A stretch of 64,000 bases of DNA from Mobula hypostoma. Taxonomy: Eukaryota. This document shows, piece by piece, positions 5,731 through 42,236 of the stretch. The position numbers and the translations under genes were made by a program. Below the pieces are notes generated by a model. That model was not told the origin of the DNA and searched no databases. It saw only the letters and a list, made by a program, of their open reading frames with translations. The stretch is from assembly GCF_963921235.1 (NCBI RefSeq), contig NC_086108.1, positions 79,052,001 through 79,116,000 of the forward strand, written 5' to 3'. Numbering within the stretch: the stretch's first letter is position 1; each line of letters opens with the position of its first letter.

Positions 5731-6101
5731 GAGTGGCTATGAGATTGCTATGATTTGGTGGACTGGGCCATGTTCAAGAACTCACGGGATCTGAATGAAT
5801 ATTCCATGGTTGTCATGGACTTTATAAAGTCAGTTATGTCCCCACAAAGTCATTCAGTCTACCCAACCAGAAGCCTTGGATAAACCAAGAGATTCATAAT
5901 CTGCTGAGGGCCAGATGGATGGCATTCAGGTGAGCCAGCGAAGTAAAATATAAGAGGTGCAGGTATGACCTCCAGAAAGCCATCTCACATGTGAACTGGC
6001 AATTCCAGACCAAATGAACCACAGAAGGATGTTCAACAGCTGTGGAAGGGCTTGAATGTCGTCACCTCCTACAAAGTAAAACCAAGTGACATATGTGACG
6101 T

Positions 6102-6484
6102 AACACACATAAAAATTGCTGGTGAACGCAGCAGGCCAGGCAGCATCTATAGGAAGAGGTACAGTCGACGTTTCAGGCTGAGACCCTTCGTCAGGACTAA
6201 CTGAAGGAAGAGCTAGTAAGAGATTTGAAAGTGGAAGGAGGAGGGGGCGATCCGAAATGATAGGAGAAGACAGGAGGGGGAGGGATGGAGCCAAGAGCTG
6301 GACAGTTGATTGGCAAAAGGGATATGAGTGGATCATGGGACAGGAGGCTCAGGGAGAAGGAAAGGGGGAGGGGGGAAGACCAGACGATGGGCAAGGAGTG
6401 TAGTGAGAGGGACAGAGGGAGAAAAAGAAGAGAGAGATTTATTTATTTTTTTTATTATTAATTTTCTTTCTCTCTCTCCTTTTT
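6102..6484 (-). mobile_element. Penelope 3' terminal (pLTR) fragment inserted in the Rex1 element, with a short inverted 5' junction
   Basis: Nearly identical to 21249-21590; gaaaaagaagagagaga...tctctctccttttt inversion at 6420-6484. Confidence 0.88.
6163..6198 (-). ncRNA. Minimal type I hammerhead ribozyme in a Penelope terminus
   Basis: AGUC-CUGACGA-AGG(GUCUCAG)CCU-GAAAC-GUC/GACU: intact core, stems I and II, palindromic ACGU stem III. Confidence 0.8.
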
Positions 6485-8725: not shown

Positions 8726-9294
8726 CAGAATGTGATACTTGTTTATGATTTGAAACTCCAAAACTTAAAAACTAATTGGAAGGAAAGCGAAAGTTGAGAG
8801 TAAAGTCGTGTACTTCAGGTTTCCTTCAAGCGAGGCGCGCATGTATCACATAGTGGTGTCATGCTGTAAGCAATTCATTTACCTTTATATTTAACCCATA
8901 ATGAATTATTTAAATGAACAAAAATATATATACACACACACACAAAATATTACTGAAATACTCCTGAAATGCAACCCCCTGCTTAGCTATAAACTCTAAC
9001 TCAAAAGAGAATGCAACTCAACTTATATACACAGAATACTATATAATACAACTACTATATAGACATCCACGGCATAGTAAATTTTAAATTATGCCATTCA
9101 GGCCTAAAGGTTTAATCCGCTGTGGAGGATTTCTTACTCTTGTGGGATAACATCTTTGCTAACAAAGAAGGTCACTGTGCTTAGCAGGTGTGACTTGTGG
9201 CTGTGAAATCAATCTCAGGTTCCGCAGTTGTAAGAGTTGGCTTTGAGACTTCAGGAAGTGGTTCTGATGGCTTAGGACACCTTTCCTCTCCTTC

Positions 9295-9880
9295 CTTTCT
9301 CTTCTTCTAATTTGTGCATCTTGATTTTGGGAAGGTGCATTAGTTCACAGGAGTATTCCCTTATTAATCCTTCTATTGCTCCATTTACGATCTGATCTGG
9401 CCCTTTGATTTCCTCATTCACAGCATCATCTGATGAATCTTCTGTTTTCTGTCTCCTTTCTTTTTGTTCTACCATTCATCCAGCTGGGCTTTGGTCTCTG
9501 CATCTATTTTACAAGCAGCTTTGTGTCTCCCACTTGAAGTTCATGCAATAACCTTAATGGACACGCAGTATTTTCTGGTTCTTTATACTCACAAAAACCG
9601 AATGCTTACAACTTTCTTTAAGCTCCTTGAAATCTCTTCCAGCTTAAAACCAAGCTACAGTTTGCAATTAACTGCCTGATTAACATATTAGCTTTCTCGA
9701 ATATGTTGCCCAGAAAACCTGTCGTAGTTGGACCACTGCTTTCGTCCCTTTCTCAATTCCTCTGAGCAGTATGGTCCTTCATTGGTCCAATATGCTTTCT
9801 AACCAGAGGCACAGAGGTTGGCACCAACAACTGCTTGTCTTATGTTGGGCAATGGTTCATGGTGTACGGCATGGAGGCAG
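9295..9880 (-). pseudogene. RBM25: Intronless decayed copy of the RBM25 5' coding region (RRM) inside the LTR element
   Basis: Reading across stops and frameshifts: LVPTSVPLVRKHIGPMKDH...ESSGPTTTGFLGNIFEKA-NMLIRQLIANCSLVLSWKRFQGA*RKL*AFGFCEYKEPE...LRLLHELQVGDTKLLVKIDAETKAQLDEW...EEIKGPDQIVNGAIEGLIREYSCEL. This is collinear with recalled RBM25 (GPTTTVFVGNISEKASDMLIRQLLAKCGLVLSWKRVQGASGKLQAFGFCEYKEPE...KTKAQLDEWK...GAIEVLIREYSSEL). Confidence 0.9.
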
Positions 9881-10774
9881 TTGTGGCATCATCCTGCACC
9901 TTTTTAAATTTGCTGTCAGTTGACTCCATTGCAGGGGATGTAGCATGTACGTGGTGAATGGATCTCCAACCAAGTTGTAAGTTTTCAACTAACCACAGCT
10001 CCCACAATGCTGGCTCTCTTTTTTATACCACATACAAGCCCAGTGTGGCTTGTTGCTTGTTGTATTTCACTGTTACAAATGTCATTCTCATAGGAGTTAG
10101 CTTTTCTCCAGTACAAATTCTTCAGTGGATTTCTGCAGGCTTCAATTTAGTGTATTTGAAATGTCGTTCAAGCACATTTTGTGGAATAACTGAAATAGCC
10201 GAGCCAGTGACTAATTCCATTTTAATTAATTTATCGCTCACTTCTAGTATAAGCCACTTTGCTTGTCTATTGTTAGTTTCCACATTGTAAATCTCAAGGC
10301 AACACAGTCCTGTGCCACTTTCATCATTATCAGATTGTTCAACAACAGTATGCAGATTAATGCTCTTTTTAAAACTGCAACTTTTAAAATTTTTTCTCTT
10401 CATTGTGCTGTCCATTTACTTCTGTTTTCTCTTTGTACGTGTTCTGCTTTGTTGCACCTTCAGCAAGTTTCACCTTTTAAAGTGCATTTGTTTGGTGTTT
10501 GTGAGCCCCTGCAACAAAAGTAACACAATTTATTCAGCCAGGCTGGTTTCAGTTTAGACATTGCAATTTTGTATAAGCTCACTTTCATTCTTGACTGCAA
10601 GTCAATGGCATCTCTCCCGTTTCCACTGATACAGGTGTTTCAACTGTTCTTTTAAATGTAATTTGGGCTTCAGTTAGGAGAACAAAATGATCTCCCGTGC
10701 ATCATTAAGCATTATTGAGCTGACAATGCTCAGATATTCTCTTCAATTCAACCACATGTGCTGAAGTGGACTCC

Positions 10775-10974
10775 ATAAGAATATACAACAGAGGAGCAGA
10801 ATTAGGCCATTTGGCCCATCGAGTCTGCTCCGCCATTCAATCATGGCCTGACACTCTTATTCTCACCAGTAGCTTACTCCCAACAATAGCCATCCTGACA
10901 ATGTCCGCCCCGCTTGTCCCTTCTGTATTTTTATTTGTGCTCTGCTCCCGCTGCTGATTGGGTCTCTGGAATTG
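10775..10974 (-). mobile_element. About 200-bp retroposon: CR1 3' end fused to an unrelated non-coding 5' segment
   Basis: Flanked by ggactcc repeats (10768-10774, 10975-10981). 10775-10848 matches the CR1 3' end at 31595-31655. Confidence 0.7.
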
Positions 10975-11145
10975 GGACTCCCCTTCCTTTTGATTCCATT
11001 TATGAAACCTAAAGGATTCTGCGATCAACAATGGTTTCGGTTCTAAACATTCCTGCATTAATTTTTTGATATCAGCAAAGCTCATTCCAGTTGGTTTGGT
11101 TGGAATAGTCAAACTTCGAAGCAAACTATATGCCTTTAAATCCAA

Positions 11146-11363
11146 ACAACAGGAATTCTGCAGATGCTGGAAATTCAAGCAACACACATCAAAGTTGCTG
11201 GTGAACGCAGCAGGCCAAGCAGCATCTGTAGGAAGCGGTGCAGTCGACGTTTCAGGCCGAGACCCTTCATCAGGACGAAGGGTCTCGGCCTGAAACGTCG
11301 CCTGCACCTCTTCCTACAGATGCTGCTTGGCCTGCTGCGTTCACCAGCAACTTTGATGTGTGT
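11146..11363 (-). mobile_element. Penelope-terminus fold-back mini-element with 15-bp TSD
   Basis: TSD tgcctttaaatccaa (11131-11145, 11364-11378). 90-bp inverted arms at 11179-11268 and 11277-11366. Confidence 0.92.
11242..11276 (-). ncRNA. Minimal hammerhead ribozyme core
   Basis: GUC-CUGAUGA-AGG(GUCUCGG)CCU-GAAAC-GUC/GACU. Confidence 0.7.
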
Positions 11364-12269
11364 TGCCTTTAAATCCAATGCACTCGGCAAAACTGATACT
11401 TGTTTCTCATTGCCTTTAAAATACTGCTTAATCCATTCAGTGTACAAAATCCTGTTATCTGTTGTGTAATCTAACGCGTCAATCTTCCCGATGTAGTCAG
11501 CCATTTTGTAGTCAGCTCTTTTTATTTATGACTATTATCATCAGGTATCCACTGTTTAAGAGCCAGTGAATTCTTCCGTTTTCTACCTTTTATTTAACTC
11601 AACTGTCTCTACATGTGCTGCACTGCATTTTTAAAAAATTCGAATATCTCTCTGTACTTCTTCAGGTAGGTAGTCATCTCAGATTTGTTTTAAAAATACC
11701 TCATCACCACTGATGTGGTTTATAAATCTAAAACAATAAAACAAATTGAAAGCAAAACAATGATCTGAGAGATTGAAGTCTCACTTTGTTCTTTACTTTC
11801 AGTGAGACACATACGTAACACATGGTACCAACATGACATATGCAATTCATGTATTTTTACATTTAACCCATAATTAGTTACTTAAACAAACAGGAATGCT
11901 TAATCAAACAATATATTTACCATATTACCCAGATACTATTGAAATATTAAAATCACAACAGTACTAGAGAACAAAAACAAAAATATGCCAAGCATCAGCT
12001 GTGCCTCCAGATTGGAAGATATTTTCCATTGGATATGGTGAGAATTGCTCTCAGAAACCTAGTTTTTAACTCAATTAATCCAATTAAATCTTCTAAAAGA
12101 AGCCAAAAATAATGCTTGACTTTAAAATATATTCTTCTGGCTTCTTCCCACTTCCATTCTAATCCTGAAGAAACATCTCCTCCTGAAACAATGACTCTTT
12201 ATTCCTTTTCATGGATGTTGCCTGACTCCTGAGATCCTCCAGCATATTATGTGCATGACTAAAGAGTTA

Positions 12270-20389: not shown

Positions 20390-21248
20390 CCATCACTAAT
20401 GTGTTTGACACTTAATAGCTTTTTTTAGTTCAGAAGCAAGGAGGGATAGAAAATAATTGCTGGTACAGTATTACCAGTGACATCTAGATGCTGTGAAAAG
20501 GAACTGTTTTCATTGCAAAGATCCACTGGATTAAGTTTTAATACACTGCAATTTTCAGTTCATTTAATAAAATAATATTTAACATTCTGAATAATTGTAG
20601 AATTAGCTGTTGCAACACAGAAGCGTCTTTGAGTACACCATAAACTTTTCTCACCATGTCCTTTTTTCAGAGTTACACTAAAATATCTCAAACCGCTTGT
20701 TTTGTGTGTTTCAGTGGCCTAGACCCATAACTTATTTCAGAATTAATTTAATCATGGTATGTAAACTTTTCAACTAACTTTCTTTCTTGACTTCCTGAAT
20801 ACAAAATAAAATCAGTCCCTTGGTACTCAAATCCTTCCTTTGGATCATCATTCTTGTCTAGGTGGAAATACTAATGATATGGCACATGGAAGACCTTATC
20901 CCAATGTTACTGCAGTTGTATGAAGGATGCTTCCTTTGAGACCAATAATTCTCCAGCAGAGAATTTATGAAGTGTGTTTTAATTGCTATGCAATAATTAT
21001 AAATTAGCATGCTACTGATTGGAAAGTTTACTGTTGCGCATTGTTTGAAGCAAAACAAAAACCACAGTTGTCTGAAAATGAATTTTGGCCATGCATGTTT
21101 GCAATATTAATACATCAGTAGGACTAAAACAAAATGTCAATTGCCAGAGATGTGTAATTATTTTCATTTGGTTTCCTATTTTGGAGGAAGTGGCATTACT
21201 ATTTCATAACTTACAATTTTAAAGAGGATAAGCAACATGGATTACTTC

Positions 21249-22530
21249 AAACACATCAAAGTTGCTGGTGAATGCAGCAGGCCAGGCAGCATCTCTAGGA
21301 AGAGGCACAGTCGACGTTTCAGGCCGAGACCCTTCGTCAGGACTAACTGAAGGAAAAGCTAGTAAGAGATTTGAAAGTGGGAGGGGGAGGAGGAGATCCA
21401 AAATGATAGGAGAAGACAGGAGGGGGAGGGATGGAGCCAAGAGCTGGACAGGTGATTGGCAAAAGGGATATGAGAGGATCATGGGACAGGAGGCCCAGGG
21501 AGAAGGAAAAGAGGGAGGGGGGGAAACCCAGAGGATGGGCAAGGGGTATAGTCAGAGGGATAGAGGGAGAAAAAGGAGAGAGAGAGAAAGAATGTGTGTA
21601 TATAAATAAATAACAGATGGGGTACGAGGGGGAGGTGGGGCATTAGCAGGTTAGAGAAGTCGATGTTCATGCCATCAGGTTGGAGGCTACCCAGACAGAA
21701 TATAAGGTATTGTTCCTCCAACCTGAGTGTGGCTTCATCTTTACAGTAGAGGAGGCCGTGGATAGACATATAAGAATGGGAATGGGATGTGGAATTAAAA
21801 TGTGTGGCCACTGGGAGATCCTGCTTTCTCTGGTGGACAGAGCGTAGGTGTTCAGCAAAATGATCTCCCAGTCTGCGTCGGGTCTCGCCAATATATAGAA
21901 GGCCACATCGGGAGCACTGGACGCAGTATATCACCCCAACCAGCTCACAGGTGAAGTGTCGCCTCACCTGGAAGGACTGTCTGGGGTCCTGAATGGAGGT
22001 AAGGGAGGAAGTGTAAGGGCATGTGTAGCACTTGTTCCGCTTACAAGGATAAGTGCCAGGAGGGAGATCAGTGGGGAGGGGTGGGGGGGGGATGAATGGA
22101 CAAGGGAGTCGCGTAGGGAGCAATCCCTGCGGAAAGAAGGGGGGGGGGAGGGAAAGATGTGCTTAGTGGTGGGATCCTGTTGGAGGTGACGGAAGTTACG
22201 GAGAATAATATGTTGGACCCGGAGGCTGGTGGGGTGGTAGGTGAGGACCAGGGGAACCCTATTCCTAGTGGGGTGATGGGAGGATGGAGTGAGAGCAGAT
22301 GTGCGTGAAATGGGGGAGATGCGTTTGAGAGCAGAGTTGATGGTGGAGGAAGGGAAGCCCCTTTCTTTAAAAAAGGAGGACATCTCCCTCGTCCTGGAAT
22401 GAAAAGCCTCATCCTGAGAGCAGATTTGGCGGAGACGGAGGAATTGCGAGAAGGGGATGGCATTTTTGCAAGAGACAGGGTGAGAAGAGGAATAGTCAGC
22501 TGTGAGAGTCAGTAGGTTTATAGTAGACAT
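21249..22530 (-). mobile_element. Young 5'-truncated Neptune-type Penelope element (RT C-terminus, Cys linker, GIY-YIG, pLTR)
   Basis: DYSSSHPVSCKNAIPFSQFLRLRQICS; GTYPCKRNKCYTC; VIYCVQCSRCGLLYIGETRRRLGDHFAEH; LQPDGMNIDF. Confidence 0.93.
21309..21344 (-). ncRNA. Minimal type I hammerhead ribozyme in a Penelope terminus
   Basis: AGUC-CUGACGA-AGG(GUCUCGG)CCU-GAAAC-GUC/GACU. Confidence 0.82.
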
Positions 22531-22635
22531 GTGAGAGTCAGTATTTCAAATCCTATTTGGCTCCATTAATGACCATTGCATCCAGTGAAGCAATCTTGTA
22601 GCATGTTGCTGGAATCCACTGCAGCATTTATGCTA

Positions 22636-22754
22636 ACAACAGGAATTCTGCAGATGCTGGAAATTCAAGCAACTCACATAAAAGTTGCTGGTGAACACAG
22701 CAGGCCAGTCAGCATCTCTAGGAAGAGGTGCAGTCGACGTTTCAGGCCGAGTGT
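22636..22754 (-). mobile_element. Very short Penelope 3' end insertion with 16-bp TSD
   Basis: TSD tgcagcatttatgcta (22620-22635, 22755-22770); same terminus acaacaggaattctg as 11146. Confidence 0.9.
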
Positions 22755-36848: not shown

Positions 36849-37376
36849 TGTAACCGGGTGACCGTCGGATCTTATTCAGTATCGTTAAAAGTGTACTTAA
36901 GCATCCATCCGGGTAATGCTGGAATAGTTGGCTGTGCCTTTAAGGGAGACGGTGATGTCATTACGCACACGCGGGATAGTGGGGAGACCATTTTGCTTTC
37001 TGCTGAAGACGTGGTTAAGGTATTGGAAGTGGATTCTTCCCAGAGTATGCTGGGCATGGTGAGGAAAGATTTCCACGAGTGAAGAAATCAATGCTGGGTA
37101 GCGTGGCTTATACCAAGTTCCTCACCATCCAAGATTGCCACCACCGTATTTGTACCCTATTACTTCTGGTAATTTTATACTGCATACGCAATTCTGTCCG
37201 TACACAAGGGTGTGAATCGGAAGTTAAACTGAGATTGTAACGGCAAGAACTGGTTGTAAATTCGTTCGTTTTGTTTTGCGACCTTCTTCTGGCACTTAAA
37301 CATTGAAAACCGTTAAAGGAATTAAAACCCGAAGAAGTCTTTGTGGTCCTGAGCGTGTACTTTTCCTCAGGCTACA
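36849..37376 (+). repeat. 5' LTR
   Basis: Direct repeat of 41704-42236, roughly 90-93% identical by eye. Confidence 0.96.
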
Positions 37377-37914
37377 AAATCTGGTACCAGGAGTGGGGCT
37401 AATTCCAAGCCAGTTTAGAGGGTCTCTGATTGCTGTATGCAGTATATTATACAGTACCTAATACAGTAGTGGTGAAGACAGGACTGTGTTCCCATCGGGT
37501 GGAAGGAGACAGCGCAGTAGAGCCTTGTGGAAAGCGCGCAGGAACCTCGGGAACGGGCCGGGACGTCAGCGACTGACGTCAGGATGCAGAGCGGTGACGT
37601 GGACCTCGGGGACTGCGGGCCGTGAAGCCATCGCATCTGCAGCAAAGGACAGCAGCAGCTCCTTTCTGCAGGCTTGTTGTGTGAACTTTAAAGGCTTGAG
37701 GTTTTACTATGTCATGCTCAGAGGATATACCAGTTGAACTTGATCTGAATGAACAAATTAGTGAATTGTGTAGTAGGTACGATGAAGCCATGGCAACCAT
37801 AGATAAATTAAGCAGAAGGTCCTATGTATATGTCCCAAGGGAAAGGCACATTGTTCCATTTACGGGGGATGTTGAGAAAGATGGGAGGTCTGTTGATGAC
37901 TTTATTGAAGAAAT

Positions 37915-38487
37915 TGGTTGGTTGGTTGTTCGTCCATCGTTGACGTCGATGAGGACCTCGACACCATTATGATGGTGTCGAGACTAGCGCGTGATTTGGA
38001 TTTAAGTGAGGGAGAGTTGCGCAGCGTCAGCCTCACTCTCTGTTCCCAATTCCCATCTGGATCCAGTGGCAAGACAGAGTCTAGACGGCTGGAGATGGGA
38101 CTAGGCGCAGTGGATGACCAGGACGTCTTCTGTGTCTTGTCCTGCTCTACACGTTCCACGACGCTTGCAGAGACCGCCTTCTCAACCGTTGGACCTTCCA
38201 TTGGTCTCGTCCACTCAATCCGCCGGAGTCTGTCTTCACATGCTGGGATAGACAACTTCCTATCACACCGAGGGTTTGAGACCCATCGGCTACCCTCCCC
38301 TGGTTTAGCCGGCTTGTCGAAGCCGTTGCCCGGGGTGTGGCTGCTGTTGCATGCAAACATCTACGAGGAGCCACAGGTGAGAGCTGAGTGCCAGGTGGGG
38401 ACCAAAGGTGGACTAACCGCCCTGAAAAGGACGCGACATGTTCCCCCACCAGAGGTGCTACCCCTCCCTGACACCCCATACACCCCA
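37915..38487 (-). mobile_element. 573-bp non-coding retroposon (RTE-like 5' region, (CAAC)n tail)
   Basis: 11-bp TSD attgaagaaat (37904-37914, 38488-38498); minus strand ends ggacgaacaaccaaccaacca; removing it restores the gag frame. Confidence 0.9.
38295..38486 (-). ncRNA. HDV-like self-cleaving ribozyme at the 5' end of the retroposon
   Basis: P1 GGGGUGU/ACACCCC; P2 CUCACCUGU/ACCAGGGGAG; P3 GGC/GCC; L3 begins UCCUCG; GG-GCAA-C; P4 GGCUU(CGAC)AAGCC; J4/2 GGCUAA with catalytic C at 38308. Confidence 0.82.
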
Positions 38488-39339
38488 ATTGAAGAAATAC
38501 AACGTGCACTTCATACTAGAAATCAGTCTGACCAGGATCAGTATGACTTTGTTATGTCCCTACTCGGGTGCAGCCTTAGAAGAAGCACGTATGCGCAGTG
38601 ATGCTGGGGAAGACCATGCTGATGACTTGTTCACCTATCTCAGGGAAGCTTTTAGAGTCAAATGTAGTGCACCCCAGCTGTGGCATGGCTTCTACAGTCG
38701 CAAGCAGCTTGAGGGTGAAGATGTACGAGAGTTTTCCCATGTCCTAGCTCAAGCTCTTAACTTGATACTGAAGCACTCCCCTGATGCCATGACTGATAAG
38801 CGGCGGTGCTAAGAGACCAATTTATAGAGGGGATCAGGGATCTTTCCCTCAGAAGGGAGCTCTACAGATTCGTGTGGAACCACCCTGAATCCTCAATGAT
38901 AGAAGTGAGGGAGGAGGCTCGTCTGTGGCTTGTAGAAGAGCCCCTGGGAAATACAAGGTCTGGAAAGTCAAAGTGTAGCAGTGGCCAGGCACAGTGCTCG
39001 ATTCTTAAAGCTCCGGAATCTGAGTCAGTCACACTAGATGACATCCTTAAAGTAGTCGCAGAGCAGGGCAAAGCCCTTTGTGAATTGACTCAAGCAGTGA
39101 AAGATCTCACTGTACAGAGGGATTTTACACGCGCTACTAGGGGCAGACGTAATTTACGGCCTAGGTTCACAGAAGATGGGCAGCCAATATGTTTCAAGTG
39201 TCAGGTGGGAGGACATTTGGCCAGGAATTGCCCACGGAAGCGGGGTGCAAGGGAAATGGAGTCTGCATCCTCCTGCCCTCGAGGTTGGGAGTCGGGCAAT
39301 TCGGCGGAACCTCACAGATAATGTACAGCTACCCTGTGA

Positions 39340-39690
39340 CCAGTTGCTGCAATGCGCTATAGGGACATGTCCAGTTGTGGAGCATGAAGTATCAGGTGTC
39401 GTTGTCCGTTGGACACAGGTAGTCAGGTAAGCACCCTGACCGAACAGTTCTTTCGAGAACACTTGAATGGAGAGGATGAGGAAATGTTGTCCATTGATGG
39501 CTGGCTTAGGCTAGCAGCTGCAGACAGTCTTGATATTCCTTACTTTGGGTATCTAGAGCTAGAGGTTCAAGCAATGGGCATGAAGATACCAAATTGTGGC
39601 TTTCTAGTAGTCAGGGATCCTGTTAGCACCGAACCACCTATCCCATGTATTGTGGGCATGAACATTATCAGCCATGTAAGCAACTTGTCT
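39340..39690 (+). pseudogene. Retroviral-type aspartic protease of the Gypsy element
   Basis: DTGSQVST...LAAADSLDIPYFGYLELEV...CIVGMNII. Confidence 0.88.
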
Positions 39691-40393
39691 ATGCAGTGTT
39701 TGACTTCGATGTCCAGTATCGTTCGGGTCGGAACGATACCGTGGCTGATGCACTCTCTAGGCAGCCATTTGCGGGGGAGCCTGAGCCTGTCTCAGAGGAT
39801 GCAGAGTTTGATGGGGCTGTGGCGATTGGTAGTTTGGTCAATCACGGCACTGCCCTTGACCTGGCACTGGTTACTGCTGGTCTTAACGGCTGTAGGGTTA
39901 AGCAGATTCGAGCCTGGGAAGCTGGTACTAGCGATGTAAGTGGTCCGACCCAAGGGAACACTCCAACCCTCCCAGGTTATTCTAATGGGGACTTGCGTAC
40001 TTTTCAGCAGCAAGACCCTGCGTTAACTGTCCTAAGAGACTTATGGGATCAGAAAAGGAAGCTGAGTGGCCAGGAGCGAAAAACTCTGCCTAAACCTGTT
40101 TTGTCTCTGTTAAGACACTGGGACAGTATCAGGGAGCGTAAAGGGTTACTGTATAGGGTAGTTGAGGATGAGAAGCTTGGGGAGTGTTACCAGCTTCTGG
40201 TACCTATCAGCTTGAGGAGCAAAGTGTTAGAGTATGTACATGATTCTATGGGTCATCAAGGCATAGAACGTACTCTGCAGTTGTTGTTTTTGGGTGGGCA
40301 TACACGAGGATGTGGCACGGTGGGTCAAAAATTGTCCATGTTGTGTACTAACTAAGATGCCACAGCCTAGGATCCACCCCCCCCCCCCACCCC

Positions 40394-41563
40394 ATGAAGT
40401 CATTTCTGGCTTCTAGGCCGCTTGAAGTTGTAGCTGTAGATTTCACTGTGTTGGAGCCGGCAACTGATGGGCGTGTGACTGTCTTAGTGGTCACGGACGT
40501 TTTCACTAAATTTACCCAAGCATTTCCGACTCGGGATCAAAAGGCGGATACCACAGCAAGGGTGCTCTTGAGGGAATGGTTCATGAAGTATGGTGTTCCT
40601 GAGAGATTGCATTCTGACCAGGGCCATAACTTCGAAAGTGAGGTCATAGTGGAGCTTTGCAAACTATACGGGGTAAAGAAGAGCCGTATCACACCTCATC
40701 ATCCTACTGGAAATGCGCAGTGCGAGCGTTTCAACAGGACGATGCACGATCTGTTGCGTACGTTGCCTCTAGAAAAGAAGCGCAGACGGCCAGAACATCT
40801 ACCGGAGTTGGTGTATGCATATAATGCGACACCTCACGCCACCACCAGGTATTCACCTTGCTATCTGTTGCTTGGGGTGGATCCCCACTTGCCCGTGGAT
40901 GCTCTGCTGGGGCAAGAACAGACTGTGGACTGGAAACATGACTGGCTAGCTGTACACCAGAGCCGGCTGAGGGATGTGCATGCCAGAGCAAAAGAATACT
41001 CTGAGCAGAAGGCGGCAGAATGCATTGCCTGGCAGGAGGACAAAGTGTACTGTCCCAAAGTTGATGTGGATGCACTGGTTTACTTGAGGAACAGACCGTT
41101 AGGTCGTAATAAGATCCAGGATGCTTGGAACTCAGCCGTCTACAGGGTAGTAGAGGTACTGGGCAGCACCTACACTGTGGAACCTTGGGAGGGTGGGCCT
41201 AGCAAAAGGGTGAACAGGGTAGACATAAGGCCCTGTGAGAACCATCCCACTCCAGCTACCCGAAGGAGACTGCAAACTCCAGTAACTCAGGCCGGCTCGC
41301 CCCTGGGGCATGAATCAGATTCTGAGGATTCAGAAAATGGTGTGATATTGGTAGAAGATGTGTCAGAACAGGGTGCACAGACTCTTGACCCTAGCCTAGA
41401 CAGCATATCTTCTGAAAATATGACACCTTCTGGAACTGAGACAGGGGAGCCGATGACGGCTAATGCAGGGGCAGAGGTTGGTAGCCCTCCTGTGGCAGCA
41501 CCCCGCAGGAGTAAACGAGTAGATGCTGGACAGCACCCTAACCCACGTTGCGAACCAAGATGA
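40394..41563 (+). CDS. Gypsy integrase core and C-terminus (open 389-aa frame; upstream HHCC part frameshifted)
   Basis: PLEVVAVDF...VTDVFTKF...LHSDQGHNFES...GNAQCERFNRT: DDE triad present. Confidence 0.88.
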   Translation: MKSFLASRPLEVVAVDFTVLEPATDGRVTVLVVTDVFTKFTQAFPTRDQKADTTARVLLREWFMKYGVPERLHSDQGHNFESEVIVELCKLYGVKKSRITPHHPTGNAQCERFNRTMHDLLRTLPLEKKRRRPEHLPELVYAYNATPHATTRYSPCYLLLGVDPHLPVDALLGQEQTVDWKHDWLAVHQSRLRDVHARAKEYSEQKAAECIAWQEDKVYCPKVDVDALVYLRNRPLGRNKIQDAWNSAVYRVVEVLGSTYTVEPWEGGPSKRVNRVDIRPCENHPTPATRRRLQTPVTQAGSPLGHESDSEDSENGVILVEDVSEQGAQTLDPSLDSISSENMTPSGTETGEPMTANAGAEVGSPPVAAPRRSKRVDAGQHPNPRCEPR

Positions 41564-41703
41564 GGTCTCCATAAGTCCGGCAGCAGTGTCTGAGATACTG
41601 GCTAGTCTCAGTTCAGTTCTCTTTAGAGAAGCAGTTAAGGAAGTTAAAAGTACCCTTGTAGTGAGCGAGTAATCGAGGACGATTACTTGAATACAGAGGA
41701 GAA

Positions 41704-42236
41704 TGTAACTGGATGACCGTTGGATCTTATTCAGTATCGTTAAAAGTGTACTTTGGAATCCATCTGGGTAATGCTAGAATAGTTGGCTGTGCCTTTAAGG
41801 GAGACGGCGATGTCATTACGCACGCGCGGGATAGTGGGGAGACCATTTTGCTTTCTGCTGAAGACGTGGTAAGGTGTTGTAAGTGGGTTCTTCCCAGAGT
41901 ATGCTGGGCATGGTGAGGAAAGATTTCCATGAGTGTAGAAATCAACACTGGGTAGTGTAGCTTATACCAAGTTCCTCACCATCCAAGATTGCCACTACCG
42001 TATTTGTACCGTATTAGATCTGGTGTTTTTTTTTATATACTGCATACGCAATTTTGTCCATACACAAGGGTGTGAATCGGAAGTTAAACTGAAATTGTAA
42101 TGGCACGAACTGGTTGTAAATTCATTCGTTTTGTTTCACAACCCTCTTCTGGCACTTAAACATCGAAAACCGACAAAGGAATTAAAACCCGAAAAAGTCT
42201 TTGTTGTCCTGAGCGTGTACTTTTCACCAGGCTACA
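41704..42236 (+). repeat. 3' LTR
   Basis: Direct repeat of 36849-37376. Confidence 0.96.

What the first reader, a model, noticed from the sequence alone, without database searches (positions are those of the whole stretch)
8740..11960. LTR retrotransposon carrying a spliced host RBM25 cDNA in place of its RT-RNaseH-integrase core
Seen in sequence (minus strand): LTR, PBS, gag, protease, linker (SPAMESTDSKFKKVQDDAT), then an abrupt switch at about 9880 to ~585 bp encoding the RBM25 Pro-rich N-terminus, RRM (RNP2 GFLGNI, RNP1 AFGFCEY) and following helix. At about 9285-9300 it returns through a purine-rich stretch to the integrase tail (CPKPSEPLPEVS), PPT and LTR. The insert is in the element's sense orientation, with no poly(A) or TSD of its own and no introns. 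From recall, this region of vertebrate RBM25 spans several exons. Inference: a co-packaged host mRNA was captured by double template switching during reverse transcription, as in retroviral gene transduction, rather than by LINE-mediated retroposition. The copy is now decayed, but the original chimera could have encoded a Gag-PR-RRM fusion and may have amplified as a family.
Basis: partly seen in the sequence, partly recalled or inferred. Interest (0 to 1): 0.9.

Follow-up and report, generated by a model that had tools for sequence, protein, structure and literature searches.

The report
Retrotransposon family carrying captured RBM25 mRNA
This is one dead copy of a jumping-gene family in a cartilaginous fish that swapped its own copying enzymes for a spliced piece of the host splicing-factor gene RBM25 and then spread that piece, apparently as cargo, to well over a thousand places in the genome.

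Summary
Confirmed and extended. Window 11960-8740 (minus strand) is a decayed Gypsy-type LTR element whose RT-RNaseH-integrase region is replaced by spliced RBM25 cDNA (9888-9282, 86% identical to the host gene found in this genome). The cDNA crosses five exon junctions and includes a 48-nt cassette exon whose peptide also occurs in a shark RBM25. Both junctions lie on words shared by host mRNA and pol-bearing sister elements (7 and 9 nt). The 5' junction is in frame. There is no poly(A) or inner TSD. It is a family: 913 genome-wide matches to the chimeric junction (control 0) against 1,953 for the pol-type junction, implying roughly 2,000-3,000 copies. Longer sisters show that about 1.07 kb (exon 3 end to exon 10 start) was captured and later trimmed by nested deletions. 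Copies form a star-like tree about 9.5% deep and decay neutrally. I found no sign that the Gag-PR-RRM fusion was selected, but power within the RRM is low. The mechanism is known (LTR-mediated retroposition, Tan 2016); the scale is unusual. The scan found this family before on other DNA of this genome (e1-7790852), plus similar captures of other genes.

The parts
11961..11965 (-). 5' copy of the 5-bp target-site duplication (AGTAC)
   Evidence: partner at 8735-8739 matches 4 of 5
11711..11960 (-). 5' LTR (TG...CA)
   Evidence: 65% identical to the 3' LTR over 231 columns; matches LTRs of sister copies at about 70-84%
11699..11709 (-). primer-binding site, CpG-decayed, complementary to the 3' end of tRNA-Ser(GCT)
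   Evidence: 17 tRNA-like matches in the genome, 1 of them checked and called tRNA-Ser(gct) by ARAGORN
10415..11504 (-). decayed gag (approximate end), with a degenerate zinc-knuckle region near 10510-10420 and two later insertions
   Evidence: translation; homology to sisters; motif in sisters but no Pfam hit
11146..11363 (.). later insertion in gag: two head-to-head Penelope-like repeat ends with a 15-bp target duplication
   Evidence: inverted repeat I10 and family D1; duplication at 11378-11364 and 11145-11131; the related repeat at 21207-22751 flanks a frame with a weak GIY-YIG hit, E 0.007
10775..10974 (-). later insertion in gag: 3' fragment of a LINE-like repeat with a 7-bp target duplication
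   Evidence: family D18; duplication at 10981-10975 and 10774-10768; absent from sisters; LINE label recalled
9889..10414 (-). decayed protease and the protease-RT linker
   Evidence: DTG motif in sisters; the same DNA continues into RT in 13 of 20 sampled sisters
9882..9888 (-). 5' junction: TGCCACA shared by the parent element (D-D-A-T-A-V-F) and RBM25 exon 3 (P-A-T-T); same reading frame on both sides
9831..9878 (-). RBM25 48-nt in-frame cassette exon (host C1:99832633-99832586)
   Evidence: 41/48 identical; canonical splice sites; 14 of its residues identical in shark protein P0151, the only one of 253 stored proteins with it
9450..9830 (-). RBM25 exons 4, 5, 6 spliced (the RRM), with stops and frameshifts
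9313..9449 (-). RBM25 exon 7, most of it
9282..9312 (-). purine-rich remnant of RBM25 exons 7/9/10 left by internal deletion; ends in the 3' junction word (9290-9282) shared with the integrase tail
   Evidence: longer sisters L013, L024, L026 and L091 keep exon 8 and more; junction word GAGAAGAAA in host exon 10 and pol-type copies
8985..9281 (-). C-terminal tail of integrase and 3' untranslated region
   Evidence: 75% identical over 296 columns to the end of pol-type copy L077, which has RNaseH and integrase Pfam hits upstream
8975..8984 (-). polypurine tract
   Evidence: longer form in sisters
8740..8974 (-). 3' LTR
8735..8739 (-). 3' copy of the target-site duplication (AGTAT)

Best explanation
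A spliced RBM25 mRNA, of the isoform with the cassette exon, was packaged with the RNA of a Gypsy-type LTR retrotransposon. During reverse transcription the enzyme jumped from the element's integrase tail to RBM25 exon 10 at a 9-nt shared word. It copied about 1.07 kb of mRNA and jumped back to the element's protease-RT linker at a 7-nt shared word in exon 3. The product kept both LTRs, PBS, PPT, gag and protease but lost RT, RNaseH and most of integrase, so it could move only with enzymes from intact relatives. It then amplified in a burst to roughly 2,000-3,000 copies. Over repeated rounds it lost the repetitive Arg/Glu-rich part of the cargo by deletions between short direct repeats. The RBM25 piece rode along mainly as cargo, and each copy has decayed neutrally since insertion. 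Shown: splicing, junction words, frame, replacement of pol, junction counts, deletion series, neutral decay. Inferred: co-packaging, template switching, trans-mobilisation, total copy number, lack of function.
For: Five exon junctions are crossed in this copy and eight in the longest forms. All 29 other loci carry element sequence upstream of the insert. The 5' junction is recognisably the same in all 30 copies apart from small deletions in a few. Junction 25-mer within 2 mismatches: 913 places, control 0; the pol-type 25-mer, 5 letters different: 1,953, control 0. Of 20 protease hits sampled, 6 continue into RBM25, 13 into pol and 1 is interrupted. 11 of 30 copies lie within 2 mismatches of the junction word, so 913 scales to about 2,500; the DNA search had 2,897 first-look candidates. 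Random junctions share 7 or more letters with P 6.7e-4 and 9 or more with P 9.5e-5. Whole elements have their own target duplications in 4 of 8 copies with both LTRs (3-5 of 5 letters). Non-synonymous, synonymous and stop rates are about equal inside and outside the RRM. Tree of 43 inserts: mean terminal branch 0.095, internal branches sum to 0.29 against 4.06. Changes that arose among the replicating lineages, at cassette codons 56, 57, 66 and exon-7 codons 246, 247, all alter the protein. This matches the model in Tan et al. 2016 (PMC5131818, passages read).
Against: Majority differences from today's host gene are 20-21 synonymous against 0-1 non-synonymous at non-CpG sites. This exceeds the per-copy synonymous decay: 10.2 expected, P 0.002, in the 30 best hits; 13.0 expected, P 0.043, in 16 of 20 less biased copies. 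It could mean the cargo frame was kept intact for a time before the burst, although host-lineage change alone can explain it. The commonest deletion keeps the frame of the undeleted form (18 of 31 measurable copies in frame), but repeats with codon periodicity favour this anyway. The microhomology null used a host model without exon 10, and the 3' word is low-complexity, so its P value is too small.
Confidence: 0.8

Rival explanations
1. Same capture, but the in-frame Gag-PR-RRM fusion was useful to the element, for example as an extra RNA-binding module aiding packaging of its own RNA, and this explains its success.
For: The 5' junction is in frame. In the coordinates of one real copy, the frame segments from gag through protease and RBM25 show no stop shared by most copies, except one triplet in a poorly aligned stretch. 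The RRM is present in all deletion classes seen. There is an excess of synonymous majority differences. Shared variants in gag-protease are enriched at third positions (Fisher P 0.027).
Against: An in-frame junction has a 1 in 3 chance. All lineage-marking changes found in the cargo are non-synonymous. The third-position enrichment is absent in the RBM25 part (P 0.53). The 30 best copies were selected for a full-length insert, so RRM retention is partly built in. No lineage-marking variant of any kind exists inside the RRM, so there is no positive signal. No intact chimeric protein appeared among the 31 hits (7 read, the rest judged from their matched ranges).
Confidence: 0.12
2. The chimera formed at DNA level: an RBM25 cDNA or processed pseudogene recombined with an element copy by microhomology-mediated repair, or an element inside the RBM25 gene was fused to exon 3 and spliced by read-through, with one later switch at the 3' end.
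For: Microhomology alone does not tell reverse-transcriptase jumps from end-joining. Two solo LTRs of this family lie 38 and 68 kb upstream of exon 3.
Against: Both solo LTRs face opposite to the gene. The 5' junction lies inside a 50-nt exon rather than at a splice site or in the multi-kb introns. The cargo is in sense orientation and replaces pol.
Confidence: 0.06
3. A LINE-made RBM25 retrocopy inserted into the element and pol was deleted separately.
For: LINE-like repeats are abundant in the window and two later insertions sit in gag.
Against: No poly(A) and no inner TSD. The piece is internal mRNA lacking the 3' end. Both ends fall on words shared with the pol-type parent.
Confidence: 0.02

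Closest known systems
LTR-mediated retrocopies of animals (Tan et al. 2016, PMC5131818; passages read; supplements not seen)
   Same: Partial spliced mRNA replacing part of the internal ORFs, microsimilarity at both fusion points (median 6 bp there; 7 and 9 nt here), both LTRs kept, further mobilisation as non-autonomous elements.
   Different: In the passages read, the examples are young and have one or a few insertion sites. Here there are 913 counted junctions (about 2,000-3,000 copies inferred), close to a third of the family's junction count, old, with a nested deletion series and an in-frame fusion to gag-protease.
Crocodilian ERV captures of KIT-ligand (CrocERV29) and nectin3 (CrocERV31) (PMC4299795; passages read)
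   Same: Host mRNA captured by an LTR retroelement in a vertebrate germ line and then multiplied.
   Different: Those are retroviruses, with nine and six copies, near-complete host ORFs and reported purifying selection. This is a Gypsy element with an internal fragment, hundreds of times more copies and neutral decay.
Maize Bs1 (review PMC13317346, passages read) and HERV-K/FAM8A1 (as cited in PMC5131818)
   Same: LTR element carrying host coding fragments.
   Different: Bs1 holds pieces of three genes forming a new chimeric gene. FAM8A1 is described as a single case. Here one gene's cDNA was amplified massively, with no sign of domestication.
Acutely transforming retroviruses with gag-onc fusions (recalled, no call)
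   Same: Defective, helper-dependent element with host coding sequence fused in frame behind gag.
   Different: No env gene seen, no infectious stage, no evidence that the cargo was selected.

Membership tests
Ty3/Gypsy LTR retrotransposon (parent family) | TG...CA LTRs, PBS, PPT, short TSD | tested here: met
   TSD clear in 4 of 8 copies with both LTRs, a 4-bp match in 1, unclear in 3
Ty3/Gypsy LTR retrotransposon (parent family) | domain order protease-RT-RNaseH-integrase | tested here: met
   pol-type sisters: RVT_1 2e-06 in L078; RT_RNaseH 5e-09, then Integrase_H2C2 1e-13 and rve_3 in L077; several hits are below Pfam cut-offs because the copies are broken
Ty3/Gypsy LTR retrotransposon (parent family) | gag and aspartic protease recognisable by profile | tested here: inconclusive
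   no Pfam hit in the window or 4 sisters and no homologue; CX2CX4HX4C and DTG motifs visible in sisters
Mag clade of Gypsy | RT phylogeny with reference elements | not tested
   resemblance recalled only; literature search gave no usable reference
LTR-mediated retrocopy (Tan et al. 2016) | intronless host mRNA crossing exon junctions | tested here: met
LTR-mediated retrocopy (Tan et al. 2016) | replaces part of the element's ORFs rather than interrupting it | tested here: met
   about 2.5 kb of pol in L077 lies between the two junction words
LTR-mediated retrocopy (Tan et al. 2016) | microsimilarity at both fusion points; no poly(A) or inner TSD | tested here: met
LTR-mediated retrocopy (Tan et al. 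2016) | further rounds of retroposition as a non-autonomous element | tested here: met
   913 junction matches on many contigs; separate TSDs; shared deletions
LTR-mediated retrocopy (Tan et al. 2016) | co-transcription with the LTR | not tested
LINE-mediated processed pseudogene | 3' end of mRNA with poly(A) and its own TSD | tested here: not met
Domesticated retrogene | intact frame under purifying selection after insertion | tested here: not met
   window copy: 3 frameshifts, 5 stops; dN about equal to dS in 49 copies; the 150 best protein matches reach at most 77% identity to gecko RBM25; a single domesticated copy among thousands is not excluded

The most novel reading that the evidence does not exclude
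A host RNA-recognition motif was fused in frame to Gag-protease and used by a helper-dependent retrotransposon for its own spread, making it about a third of its family. It would be one of several host-mRNA-carrying Gypsy lineages that amplified in this fish genome, an animal counterpart of gene-carrying plant transposons on a scale not seen in the papers read.
Probability: 0.12. Interest if true: 0.85.

Novelty: new variant of a known kind. Interest (0 to 1): 0.55.

Why it matters
It is a clear vertebrate fossil of mRNA capture by a non-retroviral LTR element, with donor gene, parent element, both crossover words and later deletion steps all recoverable in one genome. The scale matters. A VGP preprint reports that non-mammalian lineages have lower retrocopy counts, using filters that drop repeat-masked candidates (PMC13320880, passages read; its per-species table not seen). 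One gene here has thousands of partial retrocopies that such filters might miss (my inference). The copies also preserve an old RBM25 splice form containing a cartilaginous-fish cassette exon. At 82-90% identity to an essential splicing-factor mRNA, they could confuse gene annotation and raise the untested question of small-RNA cross-talk with the host gene.

Tried and rejected
Pfam and PDB searches with the window frames gave no meaningful hit. The protein search with the protease region found none of 108 candidates significant. The search of 1.84 billion representatives with a junction-spanning frame gave 31 hits, none chimeric as far as checked; two long ones were repeat artefacts. Reading the cassette exon as a poison exon was rejected: it is 48 nt, in frame, without a stop, and conserved in a shark protein. 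Treating the window's 3' end as the original capture point was rejected because longer sisters extend to exon 10. Codon 245 first looked like an element-lineage change, but the shark protein has the copies' residue, so it was dropped. Run search on the host gene: no RNA holder listed. Laying 4 of 22 runs (four coded relatives) showed exon 6-5 and 5-4 joints in 4 of 4 and the cassette joint in 2 of 4. The runs also cover introns and are only guessed to be RNA, so they cannot separate host mRNA from family copies, and only one informative exon site was shown. Literature: no paper linking RBM25 to an LTR capture among the 6 listed; some searches were seen as listings; a manta-ray genome preprint has 0 occurrences of RBM25 or retrocopies (10.64898/2026.10.27.761883, passages). 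A sequence look-up in earlier findings returned nothing. Rows left out: 1 of the first 21 non-self protease hits was skipped because it adjoins an RBM25 hit; 4 of 20 copies with under 400 aligned nt were dropped; 7 of 50 short copies were left out of the tree; L017 was dropped as a near-duplicate of L027; 19 of 50 copies lacked an anchor.
Full report
Observation. On the minus strand, window 11960-8740 is an LTR element. It has LTRs at 11960-11711 and about 8974-8740, 65% identical over 231 columns, a 5-bp target duplication at 4 of 5, a PBS complementary to tRNA-Ser(GCT) and a PPT. Gag is interrupted by two younger insertions with their own target duplications. The frame at 9881-9504 matches RBM25 at E 1e-38. 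The genome has 3.48 Gb in 200 contigs. The best protein match to a sister copy is a shark RBM25 at 81%, so the host is a cartilaginous fish; earlier AI notes call it a ray (not checked).

Donor gene. The host RBM25 was located on C1 through its C-terminal exons and the 5' exons were mapped. The window insert consists of the last 10 nt of exon 3, a 48-nt cassette exon, exons 4, 5, 6 and most of exon 7, at 86.4% identity over 565 nt. About 18.6 kb of introns are missing. The cassette exon has canonical splice sites and keeps the frame. Its peptide is found in 1 of 253 stored proteins, the shark isoform P0151. The captured RNA was therefore a specific splice form of cartilaginous fishes. The Pro-rich N-terminus was not captured.

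Family. A DNA search with the insert gave 2,897 first-look candidates; all 40 scored matched nearly full length, the other loci at 81-84%. All 29 other loci fetched have element sequence upstream and nearly all have the integrase tail and LTR downstream. The chimeric junction word occurs at 913 places within 2 mismatches (control 0); the pol-type word occurs at 1,953. Among 20 protease hits, 6 continue into RBM25, 13 into pol and 1 is interrupted. Since 11 of 30 copies fall within 2 mismatches, I infer roughly 2,000-3,000 copies. Some 'pol-type' copies are themselves deleted further on (L079), so 1,953 is not a count of autonomous elements.

Junctions. Pol-type sisters carry RT, RNaseH and integrase in Gypsy order. 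At the 5' junction, parent and host share TGCCACA in the same reading frame. At the 3' junction they share GAGAAGAAA, in host exon 10 and just before the integrase tail; there the cargo frame runs on out of register with integrase and ends some 60 codons later. Random junctions rarely share words this long (P 6.7e-4 and 9.5e-5; the 3' value is optimistic because the word is low-complexity). L013 and L026 extend through exons 8 and 9 to the start of exon 10, L024 keeps exon 8 and part of exon 9, and L091 keeps exon 8. The original cargo was therefore about 1.07 kb replacing about 2.5 kb of pol. The distance from an exon-7 anchor to the tail falls into nested classes (53-73, 120, about 170, 200 and 381 nt, against 522 undeleted). 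The window copy belongs to the commonest short class. No poly(A) lies at the junction in 30 of 30 copies.

Age and selection. LTR pairs of 8 copies are 65-81% identical including gaps. A tree of 43 inserts is star-like with mean terminal branch 0.095. Four coded relatives differ from this genome by roughly 4-10% in RBM25 introns and show spliced joints, but those runs cannot separate mRNA from family copies. I give no absolute date. After insertion, non-synonymous, synonymous and nonsense rates are about equal in and outside the RRM; the window copy has 3 frameshifts and 5 stops. Differences from the present host gene carried by most copies are 20-21 synonymous against 0-1 non-synonymous at non-CpG sites and are shared by the long forms. 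The founder therefore carried an essentially unaltered RBM25 peptide. That number exceeds per-copy decay (P 0.002 in the best hits; P 0.043 in 16 less biased copies), which is the one result that leans towards a period of selection before the burst. Against that, the five changes that mark replicating lineages are all non-synonymous and lie outside the RRM, and shared variants are enriched at third positions in gag-protease (P 0.027) but not in the cargo (P 0.53). Inside the RRM there are no lineage-marking variants, so the test has no power there.

Mechanism. Best reading (0.8): double template switch onto a co-packaged mRNA, then helper-dependent amplification with stepwise loss of the repetitive part, the cargo being passive. 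A useful Gag-PR-RRM fusion (0.12), DNA-level recombination or read-through (0.06; two solo LTRs upstream of the gene face the wrong way) and LINE retroposition (0.02) are the rivals.

Comparison. The structure meets the features of LTR-mediated retrocopies of Tan et al. 2016 (passages). The crocodilian ERV captures have nine and six copies (passages); Bs1 is the plant precedent (passages of a review). My searches (passages) found no report of this family. Supplements of Tan et al. and of the VGP preprint were not seen, and repeat libraries such as Repbase could not be searched, so it may be catalogued there as an unnamed internal sequence. The scan itself noted the same family on another piece of this genome and similar captures of SUDS3, RNF213, MYH16 and USP35; I reached my reading before that look-up and did not test the other captures.

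Verdict. Real, a new variant of a known kind: known mechanism, unusual scale and unusually complete anatomy, no demonstrated function. Interest 0.55.

Noticed in passing
window 36849-42236 (+): A second, younger Gypsy-type element: LTRs of about 530 nt at 91-94% identity, a zf-CCHC hit at 38800-39321 and an rve hit at 40352-41560. The protease frame seems to run almost directly into the end of RNaseH, so RT appears deleted.
   Followed up: partly
window 21207-22751 and 6061-6437: Penelope-like repeats (weak GIY-YIG hit, E 0.007) related to the palindromic insertion inside this element's gag.
   Followed up: partly
G000:C1:99832633-99832586 (L037): A 48-nt in-frame RBM25 cassette exon between exons 3 and 4, with 14 residues identical in a hexanchiform shark protein and not detected in the other 252 stored proteins.
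   Followed up: yes
L017 (G000:C96:22421546-22425160) and L027: L017 holds two tandem partial copies of the protease-RBM25 segment and is a close relative of L027, 1.2 Mb away on the same contig (branch support 1.0), suggesting a later segmental duplication.
   Followed up: no
L026 2430-3100 (oriented): The integrase tail of this long-form copy has expanded into a tandem array of an approximately 43-nt unit.
   Followed up: no
G000:C1:99876650-99876890 and 99906403-99906635: Two solo LTRs of the same family upstream of RBM25 exon 3, both opposite to the gene.
   Followed up: partly
L089 (G000:C18:83912011-83912710): A copy that keeps the host-like end of exon 7 and has the present host letter at two otherwise family-wide differences; an early branch or chance back-mutation.
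   Followed up: no
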